From: Mesotaenium endlicherianum
Taxonomy: Eukaryota
DNA length: 35,221 nucleotides
Assembly: GCA_009602735.1 (NCBI GenBank)
Contig: WELA01002449.1
Location: 220,649 to 255,869 of the forward strand
Direction: 5' to 3'
A program made the position numbers and the translations under genes. Position 1 is the first letter of the stretch. The number at the start of each line of letters is the position of its first letter. The notes beneath the pieces were generated by a model. That model had not been told where the DNA came from, made no database searches, and saw only the letters and a program-made list of their open reading frames with translations. Below are positions 6,276 through 35,221 of this stretch, one piece after another.

Positions 6276-6310
6276 TCACTCCCCCGACATAAAATGCAAC
6301 GTCTCGGGCG

Positions 6311-10100: not shown

Positions 10101-10599
10101 TCTGGATTTTCTGGATTGCGCGCAAAACACAGATTCTTGAAGTGATGACGTTCTTGATCTTGATGGTACCGTCTCTCCAATCTACTTGGAGGTTGTGCTT
10201 GATCAACCAAGGCGTCCCTAGGATGACGTTGTACTTGCCCAATTGCATGGGGGAGAACACTACTCTATCTTTGAAGGACTTGATGGAGAGTGCCAAGGGG
10301 TACGTATTTTTGGAAGGGGTAATATAGGACAATCCATTGAGCATCATAATCTCCTTGTCCTGGTCAAGAGTGCGCATAGTAATACCATGCTTAGTGGCAA
10401 AATCTGCAGCAATGAAATTGCCTTGGGCTCCGCTGTCCACCAAGTTGTGGACCTTCTCTCCTCCAAGGTAGCCTCCCAAACTTATTCGGGCTGGAACGTC
10501 GTCTTCAACGGGGGTCTCCACCTCACTTGGCTTGTTGTCTTCTCGTGAGGTGGGTCTTGGGGTGGTAGGCTCCTGGCCTACCGGCGCTCTCCGTTTTTT
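7172..10599 (-). pseudogene. pol: pol of element A (protease, RT, RNase H, integrase, chromodomain), fragmented
   Basis: [85 protein letters not shown]. Spread over many short ORFs by stops and frameshifts. Confidence 0.95.
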
Positions 10600-11217
10600 G
10601 ACATCTTCTTAGGGCATGAGAGTGCACGGTGACCTTTCTCCTTGCAATAAAAGCATACTCCAGCCTTCATGAGAGTTTCTTTTTCAGCCGAGGAGAGTCT
10701 TGCTTTCACTCCTTGCTGGTTTCTTACATCATAATTGTCATTGGAGGGTCTTCCACTCTTCCAGGCAGCCGCGGGGTCTCTTCCGATGACTCCAATTTCC
10801 ATGGGTGTAGGTCCAGATTCGGATGTGGAAGGGGCTGCGTACACCCGCGTCGTCGGTGCCCGTGGAGATGAAGGCAATGAATGCTTGAAATCCAAAGTAT
10901 CCACCTTTTGGGCCACTTCAATGATCTTTGAGAAGTCCGTCAAGTCGCGTAATTCCTCTTCCTTTGCCACCTTGGGCTTGAGGGCAAAGATGTAGCGATC
11001 AATCTTCTCCTTGAGAGACATGTTGGGGATCTCAAGAGTGAGGGCGTGAGATCTGGATGTATACTCTTGATAATTTGGACGGACGTGGTTTGCTTGAGGT
11101 GGTGGAGCTTTCTTCGAGCAATCTTCTCCGCATTGATGGGCATGAATTGCTTCTTGAGGGCCTCACTAAAATCTGCCCATCTTGCATATGATGGTGGGGG
11201 TTCTTGGCCGAGCACGG
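10578..11217 (-). pseudogene. gag: gag of element A, 3' fragment (zinc knuckle)
   Basis: WADFSEALKKQF, GPTPMEIG, CFYCKEKGHRALSC; cut by the insertion of B at 11218. Confidence 0.9.
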
Positions 11218-11936
11218 TGAAATGAATCGACTTACCAAATAGGCGATTAACAATTAATAAAGATCTTTATATCAGCAAGTAATCTTTATGGTATTTCCGT
11301 TAACTCGTTAAACGGCAAAGGACAATACACTAGCAGGGAATACTACTCGTCAGTCAAATGAGAGTAAACTAGCATCAATAATGCAAATCAGTAAACTCAT
11401 ACATAAGCAAGGTTAGAAGACAGTGCGTATCAATGGCTTCTCGCCTTGGATTCAGATCTCTCTCAGTAAGCTGTACAAGAGAGTTGGCCTCGTTTCCGAA
11501 TGCCGAACTCGAGAGCAATGCCTAGCATATGTACATGGAATGAGTTTACTGTTCAACGGTCAGTGCGATGGCACCGCCTACCCGGGAGTTAACCACGTTG
11601 GTAGGACCTCGGTTAACCAAATCCACCGCCATCTCCCATCATCCCGAATAGCCATCCATCATAGGGATGTCATCTGGCTATTCATCTAGCATATCGCACT
11701 TAGATGCATATCAAGGCAGTTCGCTGCTACCGAGTACGGAAGTCAGCTGGCTGTCAAAGAATGGGTCAGCAAGCTGACTTATATGGACTTCAGCCTGCTG
11801 CTTCCGGCTGAGTCATTAAACTGATAATTATGTAAAGTCCAGCAGACTGACTATTAACTAAAGTTCAGCAGGCTGAACTTAATTAACTATTATATTTAAA
11901 TGAATATTATATCCACTAATATACTGATTCATTACA
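11218..11936 (-). repeat. 3' LTR of element B (719 bp)
   Basis: Repeat of 19292-20037, 32201-32921 and (inverted) 25134-25853. Confidence 0.96.
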
Positions 11937-11950
11937 ATCCCTCCAACTTA
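11937..11950 (-). promoter_or_regulatory. Polypurine tract of B
   Basis: TAAGTTGGAGGGAT immediately before the TGTAATG start of the 3' LTR. Confidence 0.85.
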
Positions 11951-12049
11951 ACTTGTTGTCGCCTCGACAACATTAAACTGCAGAAATTTTAAATAAGGGA
12001 ACTGAACCTGACCAGCCTCCCTTACTGACTGCCTCTTCAGCGTGTCACC

Positions 12050-13726
12050 TTAAGGGGTTGTTCCTGGGGCTTCAGGATCAGGAGACGGAGATCTGGACCT
12101 AGATCTGGACAGCCCTCTAGGTCTGTCAGCTGGCCTTCTAAAGAACCCTGTTTGCTCTAAAGTTGGCCCTCGAGGAGAACGGAGGATGGTGGCCTGCTCT
12201 TCAACCACTTGGGTGTTGATTCCCACATAGACAGGCATTCCAGTAGGATGCTGAAATACATTGGCTAGAGGTACATGCCCCTGAGCGGAGGGGGAGGCTG
12301 GCATACCTCTGGCCCACCCGCGTGTCCCTCTTCTGGCACCCCTGTCCTCTGGGGATTTCTGTCTGTGTCTGCTGCCCAGTACAGTCAGATCAGCTTCTTC
12401 CCCTGCTTGGGCAGGTGGGCTGGGGGAGCGAGCGCGGGGTCCAGTTGTCGCCATAACGGGGATCACATTCCACACACCTGATCGTGGTTCTTTAGGAAGT
12501 GCCACTGCCTGTCCCTGGGTATCCTGAGTACCTGCTGCTGATGCTTCTCCTCTGCCTTGTTCTTCTTCCTCATCCTCCTCATCCTCCTCCTCGGAGAGAG
12601 TAGGGGTCTCGTCCACTAAGTCGTCCTGCTCCCTAGTAGACATGGAGTAGTCTACCGACCTCCCTTTCTTAGGGCGCGCTGGAGGTTGCTTGGCCTTCAG
12701 CCTACTGATATCTATCCGGCCTGCATTCTTTGCCCATTTGACAAAGGCATGCTTTCCCTTAGAGAAGTACTCTCTTCCCCTCCTCCTATGTTCCTTGGTC
12801 TCTGCATTCATATTGCTCAGGCATCCATTCAGCCTGGGGTCCCAAGGGGCAATGTGAGGTGGTAGGATGAGATAGCCGTCTAGGCCATAGTGGAAGTCAT
12901 CCGGTTGGGCTCGGTCACACTCCTGCTTCTTATTTGTGACGGTCATCCACCTCCAGTCTGTTGGCTGCTGGTAGTACTGGGGTCCGTGCTCAGCCTTCCT
13001 CAGTTTACACGGGAACCAGTGGGGAGAGAACATCTGCTGTCCTGCTTCCCTGGCCAAGTACTCCCAGCTCCTTCTCTCAACTTCATTGTAAGCTGGCAGG
13101 AGTGTGAGGTAGAATACCGTATCCTTAAAGCTATCGGGCCGCATGCTCACCATCCGGATGAGTCTCTGATCTCCCACTATTCCCGGTATGGGGACCGGCT
13201 TGTCCTCTGAATCATCTGCGAGATACCGGGCCTGCTCTGCTGTATAGCCCACCATCTTAGCATAATCTTCGTAAAGGACCACGCCGGTGTGTGTCTCGAT
13301 GTACCTGTCCAGTGCTGTAGCTCCTTCCTTCTGTAGCAGTGTTGTCTGTTCCAGCCTGTTGATCTCCTGGGCTGCCAGCAATGCTTCCTTCAGGTTATCG
13401 AAGTTTTGGCCACCCACCACAGTATACCTGTAAGTGGCCAAGCTCTTCTGTCTGTCCGCTTCAATCTTTTTTCTTTTCTCCTCTTCTGCCGCTGCCGCTT
13501 CTTCTTGCTGTTTCTTCTGTCTCTCCTCCTCAGCCTTCCTGAGGTTTTCCGCTTCCTGATCCTTCTTCCTCTGTGCCTCTTCTGCCGCCTCTTGTTGCTT
13601 GCGGACCCTTTCTTGTTCTCTCCTGGTGAGGGACGTCGCCGCCAGCTCCTTCTGGTATTGCTCCATTGTCCTCCTGGCTTCTTCTGCCTTGCGCTTTCTG
13701 TCCTCCTTTTGTGTGGTGGGCGCCAT
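12050..13726 (-). CDS. ORF3 of element B: 558-aa protein of unknown function (charged coiled-coil N-terminus, aromatic-rich core, acidic tract, RS/SP-rich tail)
   Basis: Long open frame, nearly identical in D and with a diverged homologue in C. ATG 13726 was chosen because it follows CAG|G and aligns with the start in C. No signal peptide or transmembrane segment is visible. Confidence 0.9.
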   Translation of the reverse strand: MAPTTQKEDRKRKAEEARRTMEQYQKELAATSLTRREQERVRKQQEAAEEAQRKKDQEAENLRKAEEERQKKQQEEAAAAEEEKRKKIEADRQKSLATYRYTVVGGQNFDNLKEALLAAQEINRLEQTTLLQKEGATALDRYIETHTGVVLYEDYAKMVGYTAEQARYLADDSEDKPVPIPGIVGDQRLIRMVSMRPDSFKDTVFYLTLLPAYNEVERRSWEYLAREAGQQMFSPHWFPCKLRKAEHGPQYYQQPTDWRWMTVTNKKQECDRAQPDDFHYGLDGYLILPPHIAPWDPRLNGCLSNMNAETKEHRRRGREYFSKGKHAFVKWAKNAGRIDISRLKAKQPPARPKKGRSVDYSMSTREQDDLVDETPTLSEEEDEEDEEEEQGRGEASAAGTQDTQGQAVALPKEPRSGVWNVIPVMATTGPRARSPSPPAQAGEEADLTVLGSRHRQKSPEDRGARRGTRGWARGMPASPSAQGHVPLANVFQHPTGMPVYVGINTQVVEEQATILRSPRGPTLEQTGFFRRPADRPRGLSRSRSRSPSPDPEAPGTTP

Positions 13727-13930
13727 CCTGCACATGTAACCAGGGCACAAGTTAGTAGGATATGGACCTTTGTCATAGGGATTGCAGGAAGTATGTTAGT
13801 ATTTAGTATAGTGGCTTCGCTGCTGTTTACCTTACAGGATGATTGCTAAAAGTTGACGTAGTTGCGATGCGCTACACATAAACGTATGAGTGTGTTTTTA
13901 TCGCTCTCGCTCACTAACTGTCATATATTT

Positions 13931-13944
13931 TCCCCTCCAACTTA
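13931..13944 (-). promoter_or_regulatory. Second, internal PPT-like tract just downstream of pol in B
   Basis: TAAGTTGGAGGGGA shares 12 nt with the terminal PPT; also at 35161-35174 (D) and 31192-31206 (C). Confidence 0.7.
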
Positions 13945-13993
13945 AATGGAGACAGGACCGCCTGTCACCTTCCCGTGTCAACTGAAATGACAG

Positions 13994-16900
13994 TTATGGA
14001 GGGACTCCAGCGGCCCGAAGGTGGAACCGTGTCAACGCCCCTTTGGCATTGGTCAAGTGGTCCTTAAACTCCCAAGTGTCCCCAGAGGCATCGTAACCCT
14101 TCCATCGAATGAGGTATTTCATGACATATTTAGACGATCGACGGACCGAGCGAGCGTCTAAAATCTCATCGACCTCATATTCCTCAGGGTCGCCGTCCCG
14201 GACAGCGGGGACCGGTCCCGGTTGGACAGGGAACCGACCTGTGAACAGTGTATCACCTTTGATGTACGGTTCCAGGAAGGAGACATTAAAGACCGGGTGC
14301 CCCTTGTATTCAGCTGACATGTTCAGTTTGTAAGCATTCTGACCGACACGACGGACCACCGAATATGGACCGACCCAGACAGGGCCAAGCTTTTTCTTGA
14401 CCACACCAGGGAGGTACAGGTGCTGAGAATGCAGTTTGACTAAATCCCCCTTGGAAAATGTCAGTTCCCGACGGTGTTGATTAGCGTATTTTTGTTGGTT
14501 TTCTTGGGCCGTGTGCAAGTTTCGTTGGACTTCTGACAGGGTGTCAGCAAACTCCTGAGTTAACTGGAGGGAGACCGGGTTGTCAATCCCTTCAGGGTGA
14601 GTTAAAGATTCCCCTAGCACATCTAGAGGAGACTTAGGGACTCTACCCAGGCTGAGTTCAAAAGGAGTTTTGCCCGTTGACGCGTGCACCGCACTGTTGA
14701 CCGCAAACTGAATTTGAGGCAACAGGTCATCCCAATTATCTTGTTTTTGGTTAATATATGCTCTCAGCACCTCCTGCAGAACTCGGTTAGTTCTTTCAGT
14801 CTGCCCATCAGTCTGAGGGTGGTTTGCTGTGCTGAGCAGCTGTTTGACTCCCATTAACCCCATTAAAGCTCTCCAGAACTTAGAGGTGAATTTTGAGTCT
14901 CTGTCTGAGATGATATTAGAAGGGAGCCCATGTTGGCATACTACATGGTTGTAAAACTGTCTCGCTGTTTCGAGTGCAGTCACTTTGACAGTTGTGGGGA
15001 TAAAAATGACCATTTTTGTCAGTTTATCCACGACTACCAGTATTGAATCATGCCCGTTGGCAGTTCTTGGTAGTGAGACCACCCAGTCCATGGATATAGT
15101 TTCCCAGCGTCCCGCTGGGATGGGTAGCGGTTGCAAGAGACCTCCGGGTGGTGTGTGCCGAGACTTATTTCTCTGACACTGGTCACAGGACTTGACATAT
15201 TTCAAGACCTCCCGGGGTAACCCCTCCCAATGATAATGTTTTGCCAGTTTGCCAACAGTTTTGGCCTGCCCCAAATGTCCACCCAGGAGACTGTCATGAG
15301 CTTGACTCAGTAAGAGAGACCTTATTTCCAAGTTATTAGGAATGACCAGCTTCAGCCTGCCTGAAGTGGTTTCAGTCACCCAGACCCCTCCCTTGAGCTT
15401 ATACCCGAGTGCAGTAGCACGACACACACCAGTAGTGGGGCTGGGCTCAAATGTTGGGTCAGAAAGGTAGGCTTTCCTAAGTTGTTCAAGGAAGGACTTT
15501 TTCACCTTTAGTGAAGTGAGTGCACACAGGACTTTATCTACAGCATGCTGACTAAAGTTCCTTTCTTGCAAGTCAGGTCTTCTAGAGAGTGCATCAGCAG
15601 GATTCAACTTCCCTGGTTTGTAGTCGATCTGGACTTGGAACTGCTCCAGCATCTGGCTCCAGCGGTTCTCCCTCCTCGACAGCTTGGACTTCTTCTGAAA
15701 GTGGGTCAGAGCTAGATGATCTGTAATCACCTTAAAAGCTTTACCATGTAAGTATGCTCTCCACTGTTTGAGTACATGAATGATAGCTAGCAGCTCTTTA
15801 TCATGCACTGAGTAATTAATCTCCGCTGGATTAAATTTCATAGACTCATACAACACAGGATGCCACTCCTGCCGTACCTTACCATCCTTTGTGGTTTTGT
15901 CAGCAGGCTGCAACAAAATAGCACCCATGGCAAAATCAGAGGCATCAGTAACCACCTGCACCGGTTTGCTGGGGTCATACACGGCTAGCACTGGGGCAGA
16001 ACAAAGGGCATCTTTAAGGGTCTGGAAGGCAGCCTGCTGCTCTTCCCCCCACACATACCCGATGTCTTTCTTAGTAAGGTCAGTCAGTTTACTGGCCTTT
16101 GTGGAATAATTCTCAATAAATCTCCTATAGTAGTTAGCCAACCCGAGGAAGGATCTAACTTCAGAGACAGACTGTGGTACTGGCCAGTCCCTTATGGTCT
16201 GGACTTTCTTAGGATCCACACTGATGCCCTCTTTACTGACAACGTGGCCTAAGAATTCAATACTTTCCTTAAAGAAATCACACTTGCTCATTTTAGCATA
16301 CAAGTGATTTTTCCGCAGAGTGTCCAGCACTTTCTTTAAGTGTTCAGTGTGCTGAGCTTCATCTTTAGAGAAAATTAAAATATCATCCAGGAAAACTTGC
16401 ACAAACTTATCCAAATAAGGTCTGAAAATGTCATTCATAGCACCCATAAAGGTAGCAGGAGCATTAGTCAGTCCAAATGGCATCACGTTGAACTCATAGT
16501 GTCCATAACGTGTGCGGAAAGCAGTCTTGTGTTCATCCCCCTCAGCAATTCTGATTTGATGATAACCACTCTTGAGATCTATCTTACTGAACACCTTAGC
16601 GCCAGACAGGGTATCAAGCAAGTCCTCGATCCTGGGTAAAGCATACTTGTTCTTTACTGTAATTCTGTTCAGGGCTCTGTAATCCACACACATCCGCATA
16701 CTGCCATCCTTTTTCTTAACAAATAGGATAGGTGCGCCGTACGGTGATTTACTGGGAGAAATGTAACCATTTTCCTCCAGCTCTGCAATCTGTGTTTTCA
16801 ACTCCTCGCTCTCCAAATAAGACAAGCCATAAGTGCGTTGCCAGGGTGGCTGGCTACCAGGTAATAGATCAATCCTATGATCTACTTCCCTTTTAGGGGG

Positions 16901-17803
16901 TAGTCCTGGAGGCATGTTAAACACATCAGTGTACTGAGCAACAATTTTTGCAGCAGTAGGGTGCTCCGGAGGGCTTACCTTTTTCTCAACCACTTCTTCA
17001 GGTTGAGGAGGTACCTCTCTTAGCAGCAGACAGAACATTCTGTCTTCCTTCTGGTTCCAGCTTTTGACGAACTCCATTGCATTCAGCAACTTGCATCCTT
17101 CTGGAAGCCTCTTCTTTTCCTTCATTTGCCATCCACACAGGACAAGAGGAAGAGCACTGGTGGGTGCCAAGTCAGTCTGCCCATCACTGGCTCCTCTCAC
17201 TTTAACTGTACCTCTGCTCCAACACACTTCAGCTTGATGTCTATTAAGCCAGGACCTGCCTAGCACGAGATCATAAAAGCCAGTGTTGAGTACCTCAAAT
17301 GTAAGCGTTTCAGTTAGAACTGCAATGCCAGAACCTAACTGGACCTCAATAGGCTTGGTTATAACTCCTCCCGGGATACTTGAGGCATCTCCAAGGAATA
17401 TTTTTCTATTCCCTTGGGTGACAGTAGGCAGCCTTAGCCGCTTAACTAAGTCCTTGTGAATAAAAGTATGTGACGCCCCTCCGTCAACAAATGCCCTCAC
17501 CTTCCTACCTGCAATCATGCAATGCAGTAGGATAGGGGGGACTGTCTTTTCCTGACTTTCGCATTGTTCTCCTGACGTAGCAAAGAAATGTTGGACATCA
17601 GGTGGAACAAGAGCATCCAGAGTGTGCACTCTCTGGACGTCTATATTACTGATGGTCTCCTTTATCTGTTTGTCAGGCATGCATAGTGAATCCAGTTCAG
17701 CAGGACCCATAATACCTGCTACGAGGGCAGCTAGTGACGACTCACTATCTCTAGCATCCTCACAGTCAGTAGACTGGATTACTGACTGTTGCTGTCTTTT
17801 AAA
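13994..17803 (-). CDS. pol: Pol polyprotein of B (PR-RT-RNase H-integrase-chromodomain), probably made as Gag-Pol by -1 frameshift
   Basis: [42 protein letters not shown] zinc finger; SMDW/SDRD/QTER catalytic [30 protein letters not shown]. The frame is open upstream of ATG 17710 through the slippery site. Confidence 0.97.
17762..17803 (-). promoter_or_regulatory. Predicted -1 ribosomal frameshift signal of B
   Basis: U UUA AAA in the gag frame (17803-17797), 7-nt spacer, perfect 10-bp stem ACAGUCAGUA/UACUGACUGU; pol is in the -1 frame. Confidence 0.8.
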
Positions 17804-19257
17804 GGCTGGTCTTTTCTCTCGACCTTAGGCAGGTGCTTGACCGGACACTGTTCTCTGTAGTGGCCTTTCTGCTGACAATGGTAGCAAGTAGATTTTGCTG
17901 AGGCTGGTCTCGGCTTAGTCCTACCACCACCCCTTCCATAGCCACCTCGAGAGGGACCACCTCTACCTCTAGACTGAATAGCATTGTACTCATACTCATA
18001 TTCATCACCCTGATTATCCTCAGCCTGGTCTCCTTCAACTGCATTGTAGGAACCGTGGGGCTTTTTGACAATCTTAGACACCAAAGCGTTACTCTGGCGC
18101 TTGTGATTGAACTGCTGCTGATCCCAGGCGTCAGCATCCTGGATCAAGTCAGCCAGTTTCTCATACTTTTTCTCAGCAAAATGACCAGAGACCTCGGATT
18201 TCAAGCCATACCTGAAGTATGCTATCCTATACCGTTCTGGCAAATCAGGCTGCTTCATCATGTTCTCTTGGAACTTTTGAGCAAACTCAGCAACTGAAGT
18301 GGTCTGCTTCAGTGTCAGGGAGATCATCGCATAGATAGCTTTCTCCTGCTGGTTGATGACATCAAACTTCTCATGCAACTTCTCGACAAACTCTACCCAC
18401 GTAGGGTCACCGAGTTGCCGAGCCTTACGCTCTTCCTTCCAGTAAAGCCACCAGTCTGCGGCACTGCCTTTCAGTAGCGCACCGGTGTGCCTGACCTTCT
18501 CGTAATCTTGCAGTTCTGGGTAGTTCTCCAGCCACTGCTCAACATCCGCGAGAAACTTGATCAGGTAATATTTTCTGTTTCCCTCAGGATCATAGTCCTG
18601 GGGAGGTTTCGGCTTGGGCTTACTAGGCCCTCGGCCACCACCACTAGTGGTGTGAGACCCCAGTTGGTCTCTGTCCCGGAGTAGGGACATTATGATTCTT
18701 TTGTCCTCCTGCTGGGACTGATACATGGTCGCCATTTGCGACTGCATCTGAACGAACAATGCTCCCAAGTCTACATTTTGGGGTGGTAGATTAGCAAATG
18801 CAGCAGCAGCATTGGCATCTACTCGCTGAGTAGTGTCCTCAACAATCCCTCTTGCTCCTGCAGCAGCAATTCCTGCCGCATTCAGCCGGTCACGTATTTG
18901 ACCTAGGGGTACATTGAGTTGTACGGCAGGAGGTGGGTTCAGAACATTGGCCCTTGATGCCATAAGTTCTTCAACAGTGCGCTCGTCAGCTGGCTGTCCT
19001 TCCCTCCTTTGTATATCTTCAGCGGCCTTTGCTACTTGTTCAGCTTCTAGTCTGGCTATCTCCTCCTCAGCTTGCTGAGCTGCGACTGAGGCAATAGCAG
19101 CTGCCTCATCTGCAGCCTCCCTAGCTGCAGTATCCGCTACTGCTTCCGAATAGGTACGGTTTCCCGCTACATGGCTTTCCGCCTGGTTTTCGACATTCTC
19201 GTTATCCTGGTTCTCCATGTCTCGGGAGTTGCTAGTTTGAGACCTTGTCCTTACCAT
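17779..19257 (-). CDS. gag: Gag of element B (492 aa)
   Basis: Starts MVRTRS 21 nt after the [39 protein letters not shown] tract and [14 protein letters not shown] knuckle. Confidence 0.96.
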
Positions 19258-19278
19258 ACAAAGAAGACTGTGATAACT

Positions 19279-19290
19279 GCTCCGATACCA
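19279..19290 (-). promoter_or_regulatory. Primer-binding site of B (tRNA-iMet type)
   Basis: TGGTATCGGAGC, 1 nt inside the 5' LTR. Confidence 0.88.
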
Positions 19291-19291
19291 C

Positions 19292-20037
19292 TGAAATGAA
19301 TCGACTTACCAAATAGGCGATTAACAATTAATAAAGATCTTTATATCAGCAAGTAATCTTTATGGTAATTTCCGTTAACTGGTTAAACGGCAAAGGACAA
19401 TACACTAGCAGTGAATAATACTCGTAAGTCAAATGCGAGTAAACTAGCATCAATAATGCAAATCAGTAAACTCATACATAAGCAAGGTTAGAAGACAGTG
19501 CGTATCAATGGCTTCTCGCCTTGGATTCAGATCTCTCTCAGTAAGCTGTACAAGAGAGTTGGCCTCGTTTCCGAATGCCGAACTCGAGAGCAATGCCTAG
19601 CATATGTACATGGAATGAGTTTACTGTTCAACGGTCAGTGCGATGGCACCGCCTACCCGGGAGTTAACCACGTTGGTAGGACCTCGGTTAACCAAATCCA
19701 CCGCCATCTCCCATCATCCCGAATAGCCATCCATCATGGGGATGTCATCTGGCCATTCATCTAGCAGGTGGTACTTAGATGCATATCAAGGCAGTTCGCT
19801 GCTACCGAGCACGGAAGTCAGCTGGCTGTCAAAGAATGTGTCAGCAAGCTGACTTAAGTTGACTTCAGCCTGCTGCTTTTGGCCGAGTCATTAAACTGAT
19901 AATTATGTAAAGTCCAGCAGACTGATTATTAACTAAAGTTCAGCAGGCTGACTACTAACTAAAGTTCAGCAGGCTGAACTAAATTAACTATTATATTTAA
20001 ATGAATATTATATCTACTAATATACTGATTCATTACA
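19292..20037 (-). repeat. 5' LTR of element B (746 bp)
   Basis: Matches the 3' LTR plus one extra 26-bp unit and a 1-bp indel. Confidence 0.96.
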
Positions 20038-21528: not shown

Positions 21529-21548
21529 CTTCTTGTGCTACCAAAGTG

Positions 21549-21564: not shown

Positions 21565-21565
21565 C

Positions 21566-25133: not shown

Positions 25134-25853
25134 TGTAATGAATCAGTATATTGGTTGATATAATATTCATTTAAATATAACAGTTAAATAAGTTCAGCCT
25201 GCTGAACTCTAGTTAATAATCAGTCTGCTGGACTTTATATTTAATATCAGTTTAATGACTCAGGCGAAAGCAGCAGGCTGAAGTCAGCTTAAGTCAGCTT
25301 GCTGACACATTCTTTGACAGCCAGCTGACTTCCGTACTCGGTAGCAGCGAACTGCCTCGATATGCATCTAAGTGTGGTATGCTAGATGAATGGCCAGATG
25401 ACATCCCTATGATGGATGGCGATTCGGGATGATGGGAGATGGCGGTGGATTTGGTTAACCGAGGTCCTACCAACGTGGTTAACTCTCGGGTAGGGGTTTC
25501 CATCGCACTGGCCGTTGAACAGTAAACTCATTCCATGTACATATGCTAGGCATTGCTCTCAAGTTCGGCAATCGGAAACAAGGCCAACTCTCTTGTACAG
25601 CTTACTGAGAGAGATCTGAATCCAAGGCGAGAAGCCATTGATACGCACCGTCTTCTAACCTTGCTTATGTATGAGTTTACTTAGTGCATTATTGATGCTA
25701 GTTTACTCGCATTTGATTTACGAGTGTTGTTCACTGCTAGTGTGTTGTCCTTTTGCCGTTTAATCAATTAACGGAAAATCCATAAAGATTACTTGCTGAT
25801 AGAAAGATCTTTATTAATTGTTAATTGCCTATTTGGTAAGTCGATTCATTTTA
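25134..25853 (+). repeat. 5' LTR of element C
   Basis: Reverse complement of the B LTRs; TGTAATG start, terminal CA mutated to TA. Confidence 0.95.
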
Positions 25854-25887
25854 GTGGTATCCGAGCAGTTATCACAGTCTTCTTTGT

Positions 25888-27366
25888 ATGGTAAGGACAA
25901 GGTCTCAAACTAGCAACTCCCAAGACATGGAAAACCAGGATAACGAGAATGTCAAAAACCAGGCGGAAAGCCATGTAGCGGGAACCCGTACCTATTCTGA
26001 AGCAGTGGCAGATACTGCAGCTAGAGAGGCTGCAGATGAGGCAGCTGCTATTGTCGCAGTTGCAACACAGCAAGCTGAGGAAAAGAGAGCCAGATTAGAA
26101 GCTGAACAATTAGCAAAGGCCGCTGAAGATACATAAAGGAGGGAAGGACAGCCAGCTGACGAGCGCACTGTTGAAGAACTTATGGCAGCAAGGGCCAATG
26201 TTCTGAACCCACCTCCTGCTGTACAACTCAATGTACCCCTAGGTCAAATACGTGACCGGCTGAATGCGGCAGGAATTGCTGCTGCAGGAGCAAGAGGGAT
26301 TGTTGAGGACACTACTCAGCGAGTAGATGCCAATGCTGCTGCTGCATTTGCTAATCTACCACCCCAAAATGTAGACTTGGGAGCATTGTTCGTTCAGATG
26401 CAGTCGCAAATGGCGACCATGTATCAGTCCCAGCAGGAGGACAAAAGAATCATAATGTCCCTACTCCGGGACAGAGACCAACTGGGGTCTCACACCACTA
26501 GTGGTGGTGGCCGAGGGCCTAGTAAGCCCAAGCCGAAACCTCCCCAGGACTATGATCCTGAGGGAAACAGAAAATATTACCTGATCAAGTTTCTCGCGGA
26601 TGTTGAGCAGTGGCTGGAGAACTACCCAGAACTGCAAGATTACGAGAAGGTCAGGCACACCGGTGCGCTACTGAAAGGCAGTGCCGCAGACTGGTGGCTT
26701 TACTGGAAGGAAGAGCGTAAGGCTCGGCAACTCGGTGACCCTACGTGGGTAGAGTTTGTCGAGAAGTTGCATGAGAAGTTTGATGTCATCAACCAGCAGG
26801 AGAAAGCTATCTATGCGATGATCTCCCTGACACTGAAGCAGACCACTTCAGTTGCTGAGTTTGCTCAAAAGTTCCAAGAGAACATGATGAAGCAGCCTGA
26901 TTTGCCAGAACGGTATAGGATAGCATACTTCAGGTATGGCTTGAAATCCGAGGTCTCTGGTCATTTTGCTGAGAAAAAGTATGAGAAACTGGCTGACTTG
27001 ATCCAGGATGCTGACGCCTGGGATCAGCAGCAGTTCAATCACAAGCGCCAGAGTAACGCTTTGGTGTCTAAGATTGTCAAAAAGCCCCACGGTTCCTACA
27101 ATGCAGTTGAAGGAGACCAGGCTGAGGATAATCAGGGTGATGAATATGAGTATGAGTACAATGCTATTCAGTCTAGAGGTAGAGGTGGTCCCTCTCGAGG
27201 TGGCTATGGAAGGGGTGGTGGTAGGACTAAGCCGAGACCAGCCTCAGCAAAATCTACTTGCTACCATTGTCAGCAGAAAGGCCACTACAGAGAACAGTGT
27301 CCGGTCAAGCACCTGCCTAAGGTCGAGAGAAAAGACCAGCCTTTAAAAGACAGCAACAGTCAGTAA
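25888..27366 (+). pseudogene. gag: gag of element C (premature stop)
   Basis: Collinear with B gag; CAA->TAA at 26134-26136. Confidence 0.94.
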
Positions 27367-30300
27367 TCCAGTCTACTGACTGTGAGGATGCTAGAGATAG
27401 TGAGTCGTCACTAGCTGCCCTCGTAGCAGGTATTATGGGTCCTGCTGAACTGGATTCACTATGCATGCCTGACAACCAGATAAAGGAGACCATCAGCAAT
27501 ATAGACGTCCAGAGAGTGCACACTCTGGATGCTCTTGTTCCACCTGATGTCCAACATTTCTTTGCTACGTCAGGAGAACAATGCGAAAGTCAGGAAAAGA
27601 CAGTCCCCCCTATCCTACTGCATTGCATGATTGCAGGTAGGAAGGTGAGGGCATTTGTTGACGGAGGGGCGTCACATACTTTTATCCACAAGGACTTAGT
27701 TAAGCGGCTAAGGCTGCCTACTGTCACCCAAGGGAATAGAAAAATATTCCTTGGAGATGCCTCAAGTATCCCGGGAGGAGTTATAACCAAGCCTATTGAG
27801 GTCCAGTTAGGTTCTGGCATTGCAGTTCTAACTGAAACGCTTACATTTGAGGTACTCAACACTGGCTTTTATGATCTCGTGCTAGGCAGGTCCTGGCTTA
27901 ATAGACATCAAGCTGAAGTGTGTTGGAGCAGAGGTACAGTTAAAGTGAGAGGAGCCAGTGATGGGCAGACTGACTTGGCACCCACCAGTGCTCTTCCTCT
28001 TGTCCTGTGTGGATGGCAAATGAAGGAAAAGAAGAGGCTTCCAGAAGGATGCAAGTTGCTGAATGCAATGGAGTTCGTCAAAAGCTGGAACCAGAAGGAA
28101 GACAGAATGTTCTGTCTGCTGCTAAGAGAGGTACCTCCTCAACCTGAAGAAGTGGTGGAGAAAAAGGTAAGCCCTCCGGAGCACCCTACTGTTGCAAAAA
28201 TCGTTGCTCAGTACACGGATGTATTTAATATGCCTCCAGGACTACTCCGTAAGAGGGAAGTAGATCATAGGATTGATGTATTACCGGGTAGTCAGCCACC
28301 TTGGCAACGCACTTATGGCTTGTCTTATGTGGAGAGCGAGGAGTTGAAAACACAGATTGCAGAGCTTGAGGAAAATGGTTATATTTCCCCCAGTAAATCA
28401 CCTTACGGCGCACCCATCCTATTTGTTAAGAAAAAGGATAGCAGTATGCGGATGTGTGTGGATTACAGAGCCCTGAACAGAATTACGGTAAAGAACAAGT
28501 ATGCTTTACCCAAAATCGAGGACTTGCTTGATACCCTGTCTGGTGCTAAGGTGTTCAGTAAGATAGATCTCAGAAGTGGTTATCATCAAATCAGAATTGC
28601 TGAAGGGGATGAACACAAGACTGCCTTCCGCACACGTTATGGACACTATGAGTTCAACGTGATGCCATTTGGACTGACTAATGCTCCCGCAACCTTTATG
28701 GGTGCTATAAATGACATTTTCAGGCCGTATTTGGATAAATTTGTGCAAGTTTTCCTGGATGATATTTTAAATTTGTCTAAAGATGAGACTCAGCACGCTG
28801 AACACTTAAAGACAGTCATGGACATTCTGAGAAAAAATCACTTATATGCTAAAATGAGCAAGTGTGATTTCTTTAAGGAAAGTATTGAATTCTTAGGCCA
28901 CGTTGTCAGTAAAGAGGGCATCAGTGTGGATCCTAAGAAAGTCCAGACCATAAGGGACTGGCCAGTACCACAGTCTGTCTCTGAAGTTAGATCCTTCCTT
29001 GGGTTAGCTAACTACTATAGGAGATTCATTGAGAATTATTCCACAAAGGCCAGTAAACTGACTGACCTTACTAAGAAAGACATCGGGTATGTGTGGGGGG
29101 AAGAGCAGCAGGCTGCCTTCCAGACCCTTAAAGATGCCCTTTGTTCTGCCCCAGTGCTAGCCGTGTATGACCCCAGCAAACCGGTGCAGGTGGTTACTGA
29201 TGCCTCTGATTTTGCCATGGGTGCTATTTTGTTGCAGCCTGCTGACAAAACCACAAAGGATGGTAAGGTACGGCAGGAGTGGCATCCTGTGTTGTATGAG
29301 TCTATGAAATTTAATCCAGCGGAGATTAATTACTCAGTGCATGATAAAGAGTTGCTAGCTATCATTCATGTGCTCAAACAGTGGAGAGCATACTTACATG
29401 GTAAAGCCTTTAAGGTGATTATAGATCATCTAGCTCTGACCTACTTTCAGAAGAAGTCCAAGCTGTCGAGGAGGGAGAACCGCTGGAGCCAGATGCTGGA
29501 GCAGTTCCAAGTCCAGATCGACTACAAACCAGGGAAGTTGAATCCTGCTGATGCACTCTCTAGAAGACCTGACTTGCAAGAAAGGAACTTTAGTCAGCAT
29601 ACTGTAGATAAAGTCCTGTGTGCACTCACTTCACTAAAGGTGAAAAAGTCCTTCCTTGAACAACTTAGGAAAGCCTACCTTTCTGACCCAACATTTGAGC
29701 CCAGCCCCACTACTGGAGTGTGTCGTGCTACTGCACTCGGGTATAAGCTCAAGGGAGGGGTCTGGGTGACTGAAACCACTTCAGGCAGGCTGAAGCTGGT
29801 CGTTCCTAATAATTTAGAAATAAGGTCTCTCTTACTGAGTCAAGCTCATGACAGTCTCCTGGGTGGACATTTGGGGCAGGCCAAAACTGTTGGCAAACTG
29901 GCAAAACATTATCATTGGGAGGGGTTACCCCGGGAGGTCTTGAAATATGTCAAGTCCTGTGACCAGTGTCAGAGAAATAAGGCTCGGCACACACCACCCG
30001 GAGGTCTCTTGCAACCGCTACCCATCCCAGCGGGACGCTGGGAAACTATATCCATGGACTGGGTGGTCACACTGCCACGAACGGCTAACGGGCATGATTC
30101 GATATTGGTAGTCGTGGATAAACTGACAAAAATGGTAATTTTCATTCCCACAACTGCCAAAGTAACTGCACTCGAAACAGCGAGACAGTTCTACAACCAT
30201 GTAGTATGCAACATGGACTACCCTCTAATATCATCTCAGACAGAGACTCAAAATTTACCTCCAAGTTCTGGAGAGCTTTAATGGGGTTAATGGGAGTCAA

Positions 30301-31142
30301 ACAGTTGCTCAGCACAGCAAAGCACCCTCAGACTGATGGGCAGACTGAAAGAACTAACCGAGTTCTGCAGGAGGTGCTGAGAGCATATATTAACCAAAAA
30401 CAAGATAATTGTTGCCTCAAATTCAATTTGCGGTCAACAGTGCGGTGCACGCGTCAACGGGCAAGACTCCTTTTGAACTCAGCCTGGGTAGAGTCCCTAA
30501 GTCTCCTCTAGATCTACTGGAGGAGTCTTTAACTGACCCTGAAGGGATTGACAATCCGGTCTCCCTCGAGTTAACTCAGGAGTTTGCTGACACCCTGTCA
30601 AAAGTCCAACAAAACTTGCACAAAGCCCAAGAAAACCAACAAAAATACGCTAATCAACACCGTCGGGAGCTGACATTTTCTAAGGGCGATTTAGTCAAAC
30701 TGCATTCTCAGCACCTGTACCTCCCTGGTGTGGTCAAGAAAAAGCTTGGCCCTGTCTGGGTCGGTCCATATTCGGTAGTGCGTCGTGTCGGTCAGAATGT
30801 TTACAAACTGAACATGTCAGCGGACTATAAGGGTCACCCGGTCTTTAATGTCTCCTTCCTGGAACCATACATCAAAGGTGATACACTGTTCACAGGTCGG
30901 TTACCTGTCCAACCGAGACCGGTCCCCGTTGTCCGGGACGGCGACCCTGAAGAATATGAGGTCGATGAGATTTTTTAGACGCTCGCTCGGTCCGTCGATC
31001 GTCTAAATATGTCATGAAGTACCTCATCCGATGGAAGGGTTACGATGCCTCTGGGGACACTTGGGGGTTTAAAGACCAGCTGACCAATGCCAAAGGGGCG
31101 TTGAAACGGTTCCACCTTCGGGCGGCTGGGGCACCGCCCTAA
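27342..31142 (+). pseudogene. pol: pol of element C (frameshifted in integrase and chromodomain)
   Basis: Collinear with B pol; same slippery site and hairpin (27342-27383); 1-bp deletion near 30210, 10-bp deletion near 30410, extra Ts near 30975. Confidence 0.95.
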
Positions 31143-31477
31143 CTGTCCCTTCAGTAGACATGGGAAGGTGACAGGAGGTCCTGTCTCCATATAAGTTGGA
31201 GGGGGATGTGACAGTTAGTGACAGTTGTGACAGGCAGCCCACCTTTATAATTAAGTTGGAGGAAGTGGTATTCTGTTGCGGGATCAGCCGGAAAATCTCT
31301 GATAACCATATTACACACTCAACCTGCGCTCACACTCACTTTCTCTCCCTTATATTCACTCACACCAGGTATTTCACACTAGGAACTCTCTCGATCGCGT
31401 TCCTCTTCATCAAGAGCATTCAGTAGCGGCAAAATATCATGACTTCACTAACTGCATTGTGTTTATGATTGAGCAGG

Positions 31478-32200
31478 ATGACTCAAAAGTCGAAACTCAA
31501 GAGGAAGAGAAGGGCGGAAGAGGCACATGCAGAATACTTGCAATTCCGTGGAGACATCGAATCATCCTCCATCTCCGCTCGGGAATCACAACGACTCCAA
31601 CAACAGCGAGAGGCACAGAAGAAGAAGGAGGAGGAGGAACAGGCCAGACTGAGGCAGGAAGAACTGGACAGAAAAGCCACAGAGGAGGCCAAGAAAGCAG
31701 AGGAGGAGAGGCAAGCTGAGGAGAAGCGGAAGCAGCAGGCTGAAGAAGAGCAAAGGAGAATCAGCAGCTACCGCTACACAGTACTGGGCAAGGGCTTTGA
31801 TCTACTGGAGGAGGCCTTCAAGTATGCTCAGAGAAGTCGCAGTGAGTCACAGAAGGACATCCTCCAGAGGGAAGGGGAGACATCCGAAAACTTTGACAAG
31901 TATATAGAGGTCAGCACGATTACGCCAAGATGGTAGGATTTACGGTCAGAGAGGCCAAGGCAATGGCCCAGGTGAACGAAGCAGGGGCTGTATCAATTCC
32001 TGGTATCTGGGGGGAAGATAGGGTCATCAGGATGATCCCCATGGACGCGGACAGCTTTAAGGACTCTACATCCCATAACAGGTTCAAGGCCATGTATAAT
32101 GAGGTGGAGAGAAGGAGGTGGGAATTCTTGGCCAAGGAAACCAGTCAGCTAGACTTTGCATAGCACTGGTACCCTTGTACTCTTAAAAGGACAGACCCTA
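31478..32200 (+). pseudogene. Divergent ORF3 homologue of element C (frameshift ~31915, stop 32161, cut by D)
   Basis: YRYTVLG, DYAKMVG, IPGIWGEDRVIRM, DSFKD, YNEVERRRWEFLAKE and HWYPCTL align with B ORF3 YRYTVVG, DYAKMVG, IPGIVGDQRLIRM, DSFKD, YNEVERRSWEYLARE and HWFPCKL. Confidence 0.9.
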
Positions 32201-32921
32201 TGAAATGTATCGACTTACCAAATAGGCGATTAACAATTAATAAAGATCTTTATATCAGCAAGTAATCTTTATGGTACTTTCCGTTAACTGTTTTAACGGC
32301 AAAAGGACAACGCACTAGCAGTGAATAATACTCGTCAGTCAAATGAGAGTAAACTAGCATCAATAATGCAAATCAGTAAACTCATACATAAGCAAGGTTA
32401 GAAGACAGTGCGTATCAATGGCTTCTCGCCTTGGATTCAGATCTCTCTCAGTAAGCTGTACAAGAGAGTTGGCCTCGTTTCCGAATGCCGAACTCGAGAG
32501 CAATGCCTAGCATATGTACATGGAATGAGTTTACTGTTCAACGGTCAGTGCGATGGCACCGCCTACCCGGGAGTTAACCACGTTGGTAGGACCTCGGTTA
32601 ACCAAATCCACCGCCATCTCCCATCATCCCGAATAGCCATCCATCATAGGGATGTCATCTGGCCATTCATCTAGCATATCGCACTTAGATGCATATCAAG
32701 GCAGTTCGCTGCTACCGAGTACGGAAGTCAGCTGGCTGTCAAAGAATGTGTCAGCAAGCTGACTTAAGTTGACTTCAGCCTGCTGCTTCCGGCTGAGTCA
32801 TTAAACTGATAATTATGTAAAGTCCAGCAGACTGACTATTAACTAAAGTTCAGCAGGCTGAACTTAATTAACTATTATATTTAAATGAATATTATATCCA
32901 CTAATATACTGATTCATTACA
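32201..32921 (-). repeat. 3' LTR of element D
   Basis: Direct repeat of the B LTRs. Confidence 0.96.
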
Positions 32922-33034: not shown

Positions 33035-34711
33035 TTAAGGGGTGGTTCCTGGGGCTTCAGGATCAGGGGACGGAGATCTGGACCTAGATCTGGACAGCCC
33101 TCTAGGTCTGTCAGCTGGCCTTCTAAAGAACCCTGTTTGCTCTAAAGTTGGCCCTCGAGGAGAACGGAGGATGGTGGCCTGCTCTTCAACTATTTGGGTG
33201 TTGATTCCCACATAGACAGGCATTCCAGTAGGATGCTGAAATACATTGGCTAGAGGTACATGCCCCTGAGCGGAGGGGGAGGCTGGCATACCTCTGGCCC
33301 ACCCGCGTGTCCCTCTTCTGGCACCCCTGTCCTCTGGGGATTTCTGTCTGTGTCTGCTGCCCAGTACAGTCAGATCAGCTTCTTCCCCTGCTTGGGCAGG
33401 TGGGCTGGGGGAGCGAGCGCGGGGTCCAGTTGTCGCCATAACGGGGATCACATTCCACACACCTGATCGTGGTTCTTTAGGAAGTGCCACTGCCTGTCCC
33501 TGGGTATCCTGAGTACCTGCTGCTGATGCTTCTCCTCTGCCTTGTTCTTCTTCCTCATCCTCCTCATCCTCCTCCTCGGAGAGAGTAGGGGTCTCGTCCA
33601 CTAAGTCGTCCTGCTCCCTAGTAGACATGGAGTAGTCTACCGACCTCCCTTTCTTAGGGCGCGCTGGAGGTTGCTTGGCCTTCAGCCTACTGATATCTAT
33701 CCGGCCTGCATTCTTTGCCCATTTGACAAAGGCATGCTTTCCCTTAGAGAAGTACTCTCTTCCCCTCCTCCTATGTTCCTTGGTCTCTGCATTCATATTG
33801 CTCAGGCATCCATTCAGCCTGGGGTCCCAAGGGGCAATGTGAGGTGGTAGGATGAGATAGCCGTCTAGGCCATAGTGGAAGTCATCCGGTTGGGCTCGGT
33901 CACACTCCTGCTTCTTATTTGTGACGGTCATCCACCTCCAGTCTGTTGGCTGCTGGTAGTACTGGGGTCCGTGCTCAGCCTTCCTCAGTTTACACGGGAA
34001 CCAGTGGGGAGAGAACATCTGCTGTCCTGCTTCCCTGGCCAAGTACTCCCAGCTCCTTCTCTCAACTTCATTGTAAGCTGGCAGGAGTGTGAGGTAGAAT
34101 ACCGTATCCTTAAAGCTATCGGGCCGCATGCTCACCATCCGGATGAGTCTCTGATCTCCCACTATTCCCGGTATGGGGACCGGCTTGTCCTCTGAATCAT
34201 CTGCGAGATACCGGGCCTGCTCTGCTGTATAGCCCACCATCTTAGCATAATCTTCGTAAAGGACCACGCCGGTGTGTGTCTCGATGTACCTGTCCAGTGC
34301 TGTAGCTCCTTCCTTCTGTAGCAGTGTTGTCTGTTCCAGCCTGTTGATCTCCTGGGCTGCCAGCAATGCTTCCTTCAGGTTATCGAAGTTTTGGCCACCC
34401 ACCACAGTATACCTGTAAGTGGCCAAGCTCTTCTGTCTGTCCGCTTCAATCTTTTTTCTTTTCTCCTCTTCTGCCGCTGCCGCTTCTTCTTGCTGTTTCT
34501 TCTGTCTCTCCTCCTCAGCCTTCCTGAGGTTTTCCGCTTCCTCATCCTTCTTCCTCTGTGCCTCTTCTGCCGCCTCTTGTTGTTTGCGGACCCTTTCTTG
34601 TTCTCTCCTGGTGAGGGGCGTCGCCGCCAGCTCCTTCTGGTATTGCTCCATTGTCCTCCTGGCTTCTTCTGCCTTGCGCTTTCTGTCCTCCTTTTGTGTG
34701 GTGGGCGCCAT
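33035..34711 (-). CDS. ORF3 of element D (558 aa)
   Basis: Differs from B ORF3 at only three visible residues (S/P, Q/E, V/I). The start region is duplicated around an N (assembly join). Confidence 0.88.
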   Translation of the reverse strand: MAPTTQKEDRKRKAEEARRTMEQYQKELAATPLTRREQERVRKQQEAAEEAQRKKDEEAENLRKAEEERQKKQQEEAAAAEEEKRKKIEADRQKSLATYRYTVVGGQNFDNLKEALLAAQEINRLEQTTLLQKEGATALDRYIETHTGVVLYEDYAKMVGYTAEQARYLADDSEDKPVPIPGIVGDQRLIRMVSMRPDSFKDTVFYLTLLPAYNEVERRSWEYLAREAGQQMFSPHWFPCKLRKAEHGPQYYQQPTDWRWMTVTNKKQECDRAQPDDFHYGLDGYLILPPHIAPWDPRLNGCLSNMNAETKEHRRRGREYFSKGKHAFVKWAKNAGRIDISRLKAKQPPARPKKGRSVDYSMSTREQDDLVDETPTLSEEEDEEDEEEEQGRGEASAAGTQDTQGQAVALPKEPRSGVWNVIPVMATTGPRARSPSPPAQAGEEADLTVLGSRHRQKSPEDRGARRGTRGWARGMPASPSAQGHVPLANVFQHPTGMPVYVGINTQIVEEQATILRSPRGPTLEQTGFFRRPADRPRGLSRSRSRSPSPDPEAPGTTP

Positions 34712-34993
34712 CCTGCNTTCTGTCCTCCTTTTGTGTGGTGGGCGCCATCCTGCACATGTAACCAGGGCACAAGTTAGTAGGATATGGACCTTTGTCATAG
34801 GGATTGCAGGAAGTATGTTAGTATTAGTATAGTGGCTTCGCTGCTGTTTACCTTACAGGATGATTGCTAAAAGCTGACGTAGTTGCGATGCGCTACACAT
34901 AAACGTATGAGTGTGTTTTAGGGTGAGTTAAGTGATGTAGTGTTATGCGAGGCCCTTTTTCCTTCTGCTCAAGGTGCGTTATGTGGGCCAAGT

Positions 34994-35163
34994 TGTCCCC
35001 TCTGTCATTAAGTTGACACTTAGGGTTCACGTAACTGTTCTTTTATCGCTCTCGCTCACTAACTGTCATATATTTTCCTGTCCCCTCTGTCATTATGTTG
35101 ACACTTAGGGTTCACGTAACTGTTCTTTTATCGCTCTCGCTCACTAACTGTCATATATTTTCC
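34994..35163. repeat. 85-bp tandem duplication in the pol-ORF3 spacer of D
   Basis: 34994-35078 and 35079-35163, with one mismatch seen. Confidence 0.9.
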
Positions 35164-35221
35164 CCTCCAACTTAAATGGAGACAGGACCGCCTGTCACCT
35201 TCCCGTGTCAACTGAAATGAC

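What the first reader, a model, noticed from the sequence alone, without database searches (positions are those of the whole stretch)
12050..13726. Chromovirus family with a conserved, non-Env third gene (ORF3) downstream of pol
Seen: B and D carry an intact 558-aa sense-strand ORF between pol and the 3' LTR, and C carries a homologue at the same position. The protein has an E/K/R/Q coiled-coil N-terminus, a W/Y/F/P-rich core, basic clusters (KEHRRRGR, PARPKKGR), an acidic run and an SRSRSRSPSP tail. No signal peptide or transmembrane helix is visible. Established: chromoviruses normally encode only gag-pol, and Env-like 3' ORFs of errantiviruses, Athila and SIRE are typically membrane-type. 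Inference: motif conservation between distant variants implies selection for an element-encoded nuclear accessory factor. Candidate roles are anti-silencing (by analogy to the VANC proteins of VANDAL), transactivation, or RNA splicing/export control. I do not recognise the family.
Basis: partly seen in the sequence, partly recalled or inferred. Interest (0 to 1): 0.9.

Follow-up and report, generated by a model that had tools for sequence, protein, structure and literature searches.

The report
Swappable extra gene in algal-type retrotransposon
An abundant gypsy-type jumping gene carries, behind its usual genes, an intact extra gene that matches nothing in the databases searched and occurs in two long-separated versions on an almost identical backbone; it likely has its own promoter and intron, and its protein is predicted to act in the nucleus to help keep the element active.

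Summary
Confirmed and extended. Element B (11218-20037, minus strand) is an intact chromodomain Ty3/gypsy element with a 558-aa sense ORF3 between pol and the 3' LTR. D holds the same ORF (99% aa). C holds a broken, truncated homologue, 49% identical in the core. Gag-pol and LTRs of B and C are nearly identical (dS 0.03-0.09), but their ORF3s are saturated at synonymous sites (pS 0.75, pN 0.33). So two ancient, selected ORF3 types ride one recombining backbone; in one public DNA run their depth is roughly 0.56 and 0.38 of pol. Their unalignable leaders keep colinear donor, branch-point and acceptor words, implying a ~105-nt leader intron and an internal promoter (inferred; no spliced read seen). 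A second polypurine tract follows pol. ORF3 has no transmembrane segment and no homologue among 1.84 billion proteins; folds failed (pLDDT 34-36). Two poly(A) libraries show no reads on B-type ORF3 and a handful on C-type. Extra ORFs in chromoviruses are known (Tekay, Boty), so the class is not new. The protein family and the two-type cassette were not found in my searches. Likely role: nuclear regulator of its own element; untested.

The parts
19292..20037 (-). Element B 5' LTR (TGT...TCA); 5-bp target-site duplication at 20038-20042 and 11213-11217
   Evidence: 96.9% identical to the 3' LTR outside gaps
19279..19290 (-). Primer-binding site, tRNA-Met type
   Evidence: sequence; tRNA type recalled from plant elements
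17779..19257 (-). gag of B (492 aa, capsid + CCHC knuckle)
17797..17803 (-). Slippery heptamer (T TTA AAA, X XXY YYZ register) with downstream hairpin; predicted -1 gag-pol frameshift
   Evidence: pol frame open across the gag end
13994..17710 (-). pol of B: protease, RT, RNase H, integrase, SH3, chromodomain
13932..13943 (-). Internal copy of the polypurine tract just behind pol (also in C at 31193 and 31253, D at 35173)
13887..13895 (-). 9-nt word shared in register with the C-type leader (31313-31321); candidate initiator of an internal promoter (inferred)
13728..13830 (-). Predicted 103-nt 5'-UTR intron (donor, branch point 13751-13756, acceptor one base before the ORF3 ATG); would remove two upstream ATGs
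   Evidence: no spliced read seen
12050..13726 (-). ORF3, B type, 558 aa: charged helix 1-95, folded-looking core 96-345, basic/acidic 346-400, disordered tail with RS-like end
11938..11949 (-). Terminal polypurine tract
11218..11936 (-). Element B 3' LTR
25134..31221 (+). Element C: 5' LTR (25134-25851), gag (25888-27366), frameshifted pol; 96% identical to B in nucleotides
31369..31476 (+). Predicted 108-nt 5'-UTR intron of the C-type leader
31478..32198 (+). ORF3, C type, 5' part only; broken in this copy (frameshift near 31917, stop 32161-32163) and cut by D
32199..32921 (-). Element D 3' LTR, inserted in opposite orientation into C's ORF3
33035..34711 (-). ORF3 of D, B type, intact, 99.5% identical to B
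34712..35221 (-). D leader: same splice words, an 85-nt tandem duplication and ~209 nt that B lacks; internal PPT at 35173

Best explanation
ORF3 is a selected accessory gene of a high-copy chromodomain gypsy element, present as two ancient types on one backbone, and it is likely expressed from its own spliced mRNA as a nuclear protein predicted to bind the element's nucleic acid and help keep it transcribed against host silencing. SHOWN: intact ORF in B and D; purifying selection between types and among copies; two types on near-identical gag-pol/LTR; no Env features. INFERRED, fairly strong (~0.75): an internal promoter behind the first polypurine tract makes a short mRNA whose ~105-nt leader intron is removed, so that the ATG at 13726 comes first. 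INFERRED, moderate (~0.6): the cassette entered between pol-PPT and the LTR, leaving two PPT copies, and template switching during reverse transcription of co-packaged RNAs swaps it between backbones. INFERRED, weak (~0.45): the charged N-terminal helix oligomerises, the basic clusters import the protein into the nucleus, the core binds DNA (a helix-turn-helix-like stretch at aa ~146-172 is the block best kept between types), and the acidic and disordered tail recruits host transcription or chromatin factors, i.e. a transactivator or anti-silencing factor.
For: Between types, over 135 aligned core codons: identity by codon position 0.63/0.70/0.42, pS 0.75 (saturated), pN 0.33, Fisher p 1e-12. 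Gag dS 0.03 and pol dS 0.09 for the same two elements; LTRs 94-95% identical. B-C identity is a mosaic of 100% and 92-95% blocks and collapses behind the internal PPT. In DNA run X1, summed contig depth relative to pol is 0.56 for B type, 0.38 for C type and 2.0 for the LTR (a rough ratio, not a copy number). Run X7 (another organism label) holds both types: B type by word share, C type by laid contigs. The breaks in the window's C copy are not shared by most other copies. Of 15 listed variant places in C-type ORF3, 10 are synonymous; of the 8 that segregate, 6 are. The unalignable leaders share colinear words 169/165, 106/111, 30/31 and 5/5 nt upstream of the ATG; 4 of 300 shuffles reach this. 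The branch-point/acceptor/ATG pattern occurs 3 times in 35 kb, at the three ORF3 starts, against 0.25 expected (pattern chosen after seeing B and C). No transmembrane segment or N-glycosylation site. Other extra ORFs of LTR elements are nuclear or predicted nuclear (PMC7264820; PMC11728184).
Against: No function is shown. No homologue or domain was found. Both models are unusable (pLDDT 34 and 36). The NUMOD1/Bro-N/HTH rows from one model are non-significant (best E 0.22; I-TevI HTH Z 2.8, rmsd 3.1, 46 residues), did not recur with the other model and fail a profile comparison (probability 0.2%). In two poly(A) runs B-type ORF3 has zero depth in all 6 bins of 12215-13834; C type has about 8 reads from about 2 starts in one run; no splice joint was seen, and the few leader reads are unspliced and mostly of the opposite direction. 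Both types share one LTR, so a sequence-specific LTR binder would have had to keep its target while its core diverged to 49%. The VANC-type array of repeated target motifs (recalled feature) is not evident: only an 85-nt duplication in D's leader and a ~26-nt one in B's 5' LTR. The segregating-site test ignores transition bias and uses 15 of 99 differences (40 were shown).
Confidence: 0.45

Rival explanations
1. ORF3 works on RNA, like a Rev/Rex-type or SR-like factor: it binds the element's unspliced RNA through arginine-rich stretches and promotes its export, stability or packaging, with each type matched to a cis-element in its own cassette.
For: Arginine-rich stretch at aa ~313-320, RS-like tail and SP sites. 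A cis-element inside the cassette would explain why leader and ORF move as one unit and why almost all copies keep an ORF3. The retroviral accessory analogy is drawn in PMC7264820.
Against: No strongly structured response element in the cassette: best 150-nt window z -2.3 of 20 windows. The RS-like tail is only about 10 residues long, and the C-type tail is not in the window, so its conservation is untested.
Confidence: 0.25
2. ORF3 is a structural or targeting cofactor (particle, pre-integration complex import, or integration-site tether alongside the chromodomain).
For: Long charged helix plus basic clusters fit a linker or tether. Sunflower Tekay groups with and without an extra ORF differ in insertion pattern (PMC11728184, passages). 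B, C and D all lie in a nest of other elements.
Against: A cofactor that contacts Gag or integrase should co-evolve with them, yet two types 49% identical ride on gag and pol that are 97-98% identical.
Confidence: 0.15
3. The gene is real, but the two-type state is historical, not functional: two host lineages each carried their own family, met by hybridisation, and one backbone captured the other's cassette; ORF3 acts on the host or on rival elements, not on its own element.
For: A single old recombination plus later mosaic exchange explains the sequence pattern. Five organism labels hold the B type, which fits a species complex.
Against: It does not explain why both types rose to high copy and both still show excess synonymous change.
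Confidence: 0.1
4. ORF3 is an Env-like protein or a recently transduced, functionless host gene.
For: It sits in the env position, in sense, and has splice signals like an env message. The host's own gene set could not be searched.
Against: No signal peptide at the 13726 start, no transmembrane segment, no glycosylation site. Saturated synonymous divergence between types excludes a recent capture. No match among 1.84 billion proteins.
Confidence: 0.05

Closest known systems
Sense additional ORFs between pol and the 3' LTR (aORF-3S / eORF-3'F) of plant LTR retrotransposons: Athila, Bagy2, SIRE (PMC7264820, read parts 1-2 of 3; PMC6317226, passages and two supplements)
   Same: Position, orientation, presence in most copies, probably a spliced message, no clear origin.
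   Different: No transmembrane segment; no Pfam ATHILA ORF-1, Transposase_28 or plant mobile domain hit; the carrier is a chromodomain element of the algal grade; two deeply split types on one backbone.
Extra ORFs of Tekay chromoviruses (REXdb table; sunflower Tekay 13-2 5' aORF, PMC11728184 passages)
   Same: Chromovirus carrier; ~400-560-aa protein with helices, predicted nuclear signals and long disordered parts; no Pfam domain; kept in ~95% of copies.
   Different: The characterised Tekay ORF lies 5' of gag. The REXdb table lists 18% sense 3' ORFs for Tekay, but its Athila row looks column-shifted, so that figure is uncertain. This element's RT falls outside the angiosperm clade. Sequence homology to Tekay ORFs was not tested directly.
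Maize Grande gene23 and Botrytis Boty antisense ORF (PMC7264820)
   Same: Accessory gene between pol and 3' LTR; Grande gene23 has its own promoter and a nuclear product.
   Different: Those are antisense; this one is sense with a predicted leader intron.
Bdelloid rotifer LTR elements with varied ORF3s (PMC5408684, abstract and discussion read)
   Same: ORF3 behaves as a module that moves by template switching.
   Different: There, unrelated enzymes or Env occupy the slot in different families. Here two homologous, diverged types share one near-identical gag-pol and LTR, and selection on ORF3 is clear.
VANC anti-silencing proteins of VANDAL DNA transposons (passages in PMC13547354, PMC12859917)
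   Same: Element-encoded, fast-evolving accessory protein with a coiled-coil part; the proposed mode of action.
   Different: No sequence or fold link found; class I carrier; no evident array of target motifs; activity untested.

Membership tests
Chromovirus (Ty3/gypsy) | gag, then PR-RT-RH-IN order, LTRs, 5-bp target-site duplication | tested here: met
Chromovirus (Ty3/gypsy) | Chromodomain at the integrase C-terminus | tested here: met
   Pfam Chromo E 2e-8, above cut-off; aromatic-cage residues by eye
Chlamyvir clade (algal chromoviruses) | RT groups with algal chromoviruses | tested here: inconclusive
   60-sequence FastTree. B pairs with two unnamed environmental pols (0.91), outside the angiosperm clade (1.0), in an unresolved grade with Haematococcus, Closterium and Chara. 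No curated Chlamyvir reference was in the tree.
Chlamyvir clade (algal chromoviruses) | tRNA-type primer-binding site (Met in 41%) | tested here: met
   against the REXdb table
Chlamyvir clade (algal chromoviruses) | gag and pol parted by a single stop codon (80% of elements) | tested here: not met
   Overlapping frames with a -1 slippery site; this is a prevailing, not an absolute, feature
Tcn1 clade | Self-priming, no tRNA PBS (83%) | tested here: not met
   tRNA-Met-type PBS present
Env / Env-like ORF3 | Signal peptide and transmembrane helix | tested here: not met
   Highest 19-residue hydropathy 0.73; charged N-terminus; no N-glycosylation site
Env / Env-like ORF3 | Expression from a spliced subgenomic RNA | tested here: inconclusive
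   Splice words conserved; no joint in RNA reads at very low depth
Described plant eORF families (ATHILA ORF-1, Transposase_28, plant mobile domain) | Pfam domain match | tested here: not met
   No such hit at E<=1 or E<=10; domain list
NUMOD1 / Bro-N / helix-turn-helix DNA-binding modules | Profile or fold match of core aa ~136-195 | tested here: inconclusive
   Non-significant rows from a low-confidence model; not reproduced
VANC-type anti-silencing factor | Sequence-specific binding and demethylation of its own element family | not testable with these tools
   Needs binding and methylation assays

The most novel reading that the evidence does not exclude
A genome-dominating algal-type chromovirus keeps two ancient alleles of a self-promoted, spliced accessory gene as an exchangeable cassette bounded by duplicated polypurine tracts. 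The alleles are held by balancing selection because each defeats a different arm of host silencing or serves a different cell state: an allelic anti-silencing system in an LTR retrotransposon, built on an undescribed DNA-binding protein family.
Probability: 0.2. Interest if true: 0.87.

Novelty: new variant of a known kind. Interest (0 to 1): 0.62.

Why it matters
Thousands of plant LTR elements carry extra ORFs, and almost none has a known function (PMC7264820, PMC6317226). This family gives an unusually clean test case: an intact, young, very abundant element, clear selection on the extra gene, a predicted promoter and intron, and two natural versions of the gene on the same gag-pol and LTR. 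Differences in copy age, insertion site, methylation or expression between the two types can therefore be assigned to the cassette. If ORF3 counters silencing, it would extend VANC-type anti-silencing from DNA transposons to LTR retrotransposons and could help explain how one family came to fill so much of its host genome.

Tried and rejected
Homologue searches, all blank for ORF3: word-index search, whole protein and residues 93-345 (only proteins of 306-977 aa searched); HMMER over 1.84 billion representatives with the 261-aa core, 0 at E<=0.001; metagenome and viral contigs; phage records, 6 records at E 5-10 only; PDB by sequence and profile, best E 0.24 and 0.26; Pfam and PHROGs, whole and in pieces (best row Obc1_C E 0.0008, below its cut-off, over a helical piece, rejected). 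Of 80 metagenome loci related by pol, 0 match ORF3 at E<=1. 45 of 80 reach the pol end. Of 7 loci inspected for long sense ORFs behind it, those ORFs were gag/pol of neighbours or unrelated; many loci have under 1 kb downstream, so this does not show that relatives lack extra genes. Folds: two low-confidence models, five fold searches, nothing significant. The ESM Atlas could not read the sequence. No host genome is held. No RNA holder listed. A long splice from the gag start codon donor (19254) was considered and set aside because it would place that ATG out of frame with ORF3; a splice from the U5 donor (19309) is not excluded. The 561-aa start in B and the 587-aa start in D were rejected: both upstream ATGs lie in the predicted intron, and D's depends on a duplication at an N. 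The sigma-70 promoter scan is irrelevant to a eukaryote. Eight paper searches showed no report of this family or of two ORF3 types on one gag-pol; subscription papers and Repbase are not covered, and REXdb Additional files 1 and 3 (element list, sequences) were too large to read and could hold relatives.

Full report
Observation. The window is a nest of transposons. Element B runs from 20037 to 11218 on the minus strand, with LTRs 96.9% identical outside gaps, a 5-bp target-site duplication and a tRNA-Met-type primer site (tRNA type recalled). Gag (492 aa) and pol (protease, RT, RNase H, integrase, SH3, chromodomain) are intact. The pol frame overlaps the gag end at a heptamer in -1 frameshift register with a hairpin behind it. 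Between pol and the 3' LTR lies the 558-aa sense ORF at 12050-13726; 500 shuffles of the region give at most 236 aa. D carries the same ORF at 99.5% identity, but only D's 3' end is in the window. C carries a homologue at 31478-32196 with a frameshift and a stop, cut by D's insertion.

Two types on one backbone. B and C are 96% identical over 6.1 kb of LTR, gag and pol, as a mosaic of 100% and 92-95% blocks. Similarity ends a few dozen bases behind pol. Over 135 alignable core codons of ORF3 (two pieces of C compared separately), amino-acid identity is 49%, identity by codon position is 0.63/0.70/0.42, pS is 0.75 and pN 0.33. For the same two elements dS is 0.03 in gag and 0.09 in pol. The two ORF3s are thus much older than the backbone they share, and they diverged under purifying selection.

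Both types are abundant. Twenty of 24 listed runs, from 7 studies and 5 organism labels, hold the B type (one may be the window's source). In run X1, 65,113 contig records lie on 8.1 kb of B. Summed depth relative to pol is 0.56 for B-type ORF3 and 2.0 for the LTR (90% likeness), and 0.38 for C-type ORF3 (85% likeness; ratios). The tool warns that such depth is no copy number, so I read it only as: most copies are full length and carry one type or the other. Run X7 shows C type at 25.9 against 64.2 at the pol end. The frameshift and stop of the window's C copy are absent from most other copies. Of 99 differences found on that stretch 40 were shown, 16 of them in ORF3. I left out the stop place; 10 of the other 15 are synonymous, and 6 of the 8 that segregate (p 0.001 against a neutral 0.20, which ignores transition bias).

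Cassette anatomy. A copy of the polypurine tract follows pol in B, C and D, besides the terminal one; in C it is followed by TGT, like an LTR start. I infer that the cassette was inserted between an original pol-PPT and the LTR. The B and C leaders do not align, yet their longest shared words are colinear: a 9-mer 169/165 nt upstream of the ATG, a donor word at 106/111, a branch-point word at 30/31 and an acceptor directly before the ATG; 4 of 300 shuffles reach this sum. The branch-point/acceptor/ATG pattern occurs three times in 35 kb, at the three ORF3 starts (post hoc pattern), and B has only one such branch-point/acceptor in its sense strand. This predicts introns of 103 and 108 nt, each removing two upstream ATGs, and an internal promoter. 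A long splice from a perfect donor in U5 (19309) remains possible.

Expression. Two poly(A) runs with the same species label as X1 were read in part (6% and 12%). They laid 229 and 344 reads on B, mostly 90-99% alike, on LTR and pol, in both directions and often running on into unrelated sequence. Depth on B-type ORF3 was zero in all six bins of 12215-13834. On C type one run gave about 8 reads from about 2 starts whose direction fits the sense strand, and both runs gave a few unspliced leader reads, mostly of the opposite direction; no splice joint appeared. The family looks silent in these samples, which neither confirms nor refutes the predicted mRNA.

The protein. Residues 1-95 are a charged helix (51 of 95 charged), 96-345 an aromatic-rich core, 346-400 basic then acidic, and the rest a Pro/Gly/Ser/Arg tail. 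There is no transmembrane segment. No homologue was found by any route, including HMMER over 1.84 billion proteins. Models have pLDDT 34 and 36. By eye the block best kept between types (aa ~146-172) resembles a helix-turn-helix (resemblance recalled). One model ranked NUMOD1, Bro-N, HNH-associated and excisionase-like domains at the top of the viral library (best E 0.22) and aligned to the I-TevI helix-turn-helix at Z 2.8. The other model did not, nor did profile comparison or Pfam and PHROGs on the fragments. It is a lead only.

Placement. The best full-length pol relatives are 48-54% identical: unnamed environmental sequences and algal elements. In a tree of RT-RNase H (window, all 34 named and the 25 best unnamed of 109 sequences that covered the region, out of 120), B lies outside the angiosperm clade in an unresolved algal grade. 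An algal host is likely but not shown.

Mechanism. I commit to a self-promoted, spliced accessory gene whose nuclear product acts on the element's own DNA as a transactivator or anti-silencing factor (0.45). A Rev-like RNA factor (0.25) and a particle or integration cofactor (0.15) are the main rivals. That the gene is real and selected I put at about 0.95, the leader intron and internal promoter at about 0.75.

Comparison with what is known. Extra ORFs are common in plant gypsy elements (3372 in REXdb) and mostly lack domains (PMC6317226, passages). The per-clade table lists them for Tekay among chromoviruses and for none of Chlamyvir, Tcn1, Reina, Galadriel or CRM (Additional file 5; column assignment uncertain). 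Sunflower Tekay elements keep a 5' extra ORF with predicted nuclear signals in 500 of 523 copies (PMC11728184, passages). Grande gene23 is nuclear with its own promoter, and Boty is a fungal case (PMC7264820, parts 1-2 of 3). Bdelloid elements exchange ORF3 modules (PMC5408684, abstract and discussion). PMC13547354, PMC12859917, PMC11963269, PMC9289625, PMC12477816 and PMC2864245 were seen as passages only. Earlier unchecked notes of this scan describe several other chromoviruses with orphan 3' genes, so the class recurs; none is similar in sequence. What I did not find in eight searches is this protein family, or two homologous, deeply split ORF3 types on one near-identical backbone.

Verdict. 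A real feature and a new variant of a known kind.

Noticed in passing
window 4423-5112 and 22202-22537 (+): A piggyBac-like transposase (Pfam DDE_Tnp_1_7 and zf-Tnp_2) is split by element A, which in turn holds element B: three nested layers.
   Followed up: partly
window 5773-22065 (-): Element A, an older decayed chromodomain gypsy element (LTRs 91% identical; pol 39-40% identical to B), has about 850 nt between pol and its PPT and no ORF3 match.
   Followed up: partly
window 34712-34750: An N at 34717 beside a 37-nt duplication of D's ORF3 start puts a hydrophobic upstream peptide in frame; probably an assembly join, not a signal peptide.
   Followed up: partly
window 34900-35165 versus 13895-13900: D's leader has an 85-nt tandem duplication and about 209 nt that B lacks, with telo-box-like and GGCCCA-like words (motif names recalled); loose ends in run X1 show the longer form in other copies.
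   Followed up: partly
window 19235-20040: Poly(A) reads on the LTR change direction near 19500: one direction over U3, the other over U5, with recurring flanks at the LTR end, suggesting host transcripts that end in, or start from, particular LTR copies.
   Followed up: no
window 24735-25075: A 177-nt-period two-copy repeat (82-86% identical) lies just outside C's 5' LTR.
   Followed up: no
window 1-1560: GC-rich stretch with CA/GT microsatellites and several overlapping ORFs of 100-211 aa, possibly a host gene end.
   Followed up: no
L009, L033, L034, L035, L039, L062, L067: Several metagenome contigs show chromovirus pol end, LTR and gag in tandem, as expected from collapsed or circular assemblies of high-copy elements.
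   Followed up: partly
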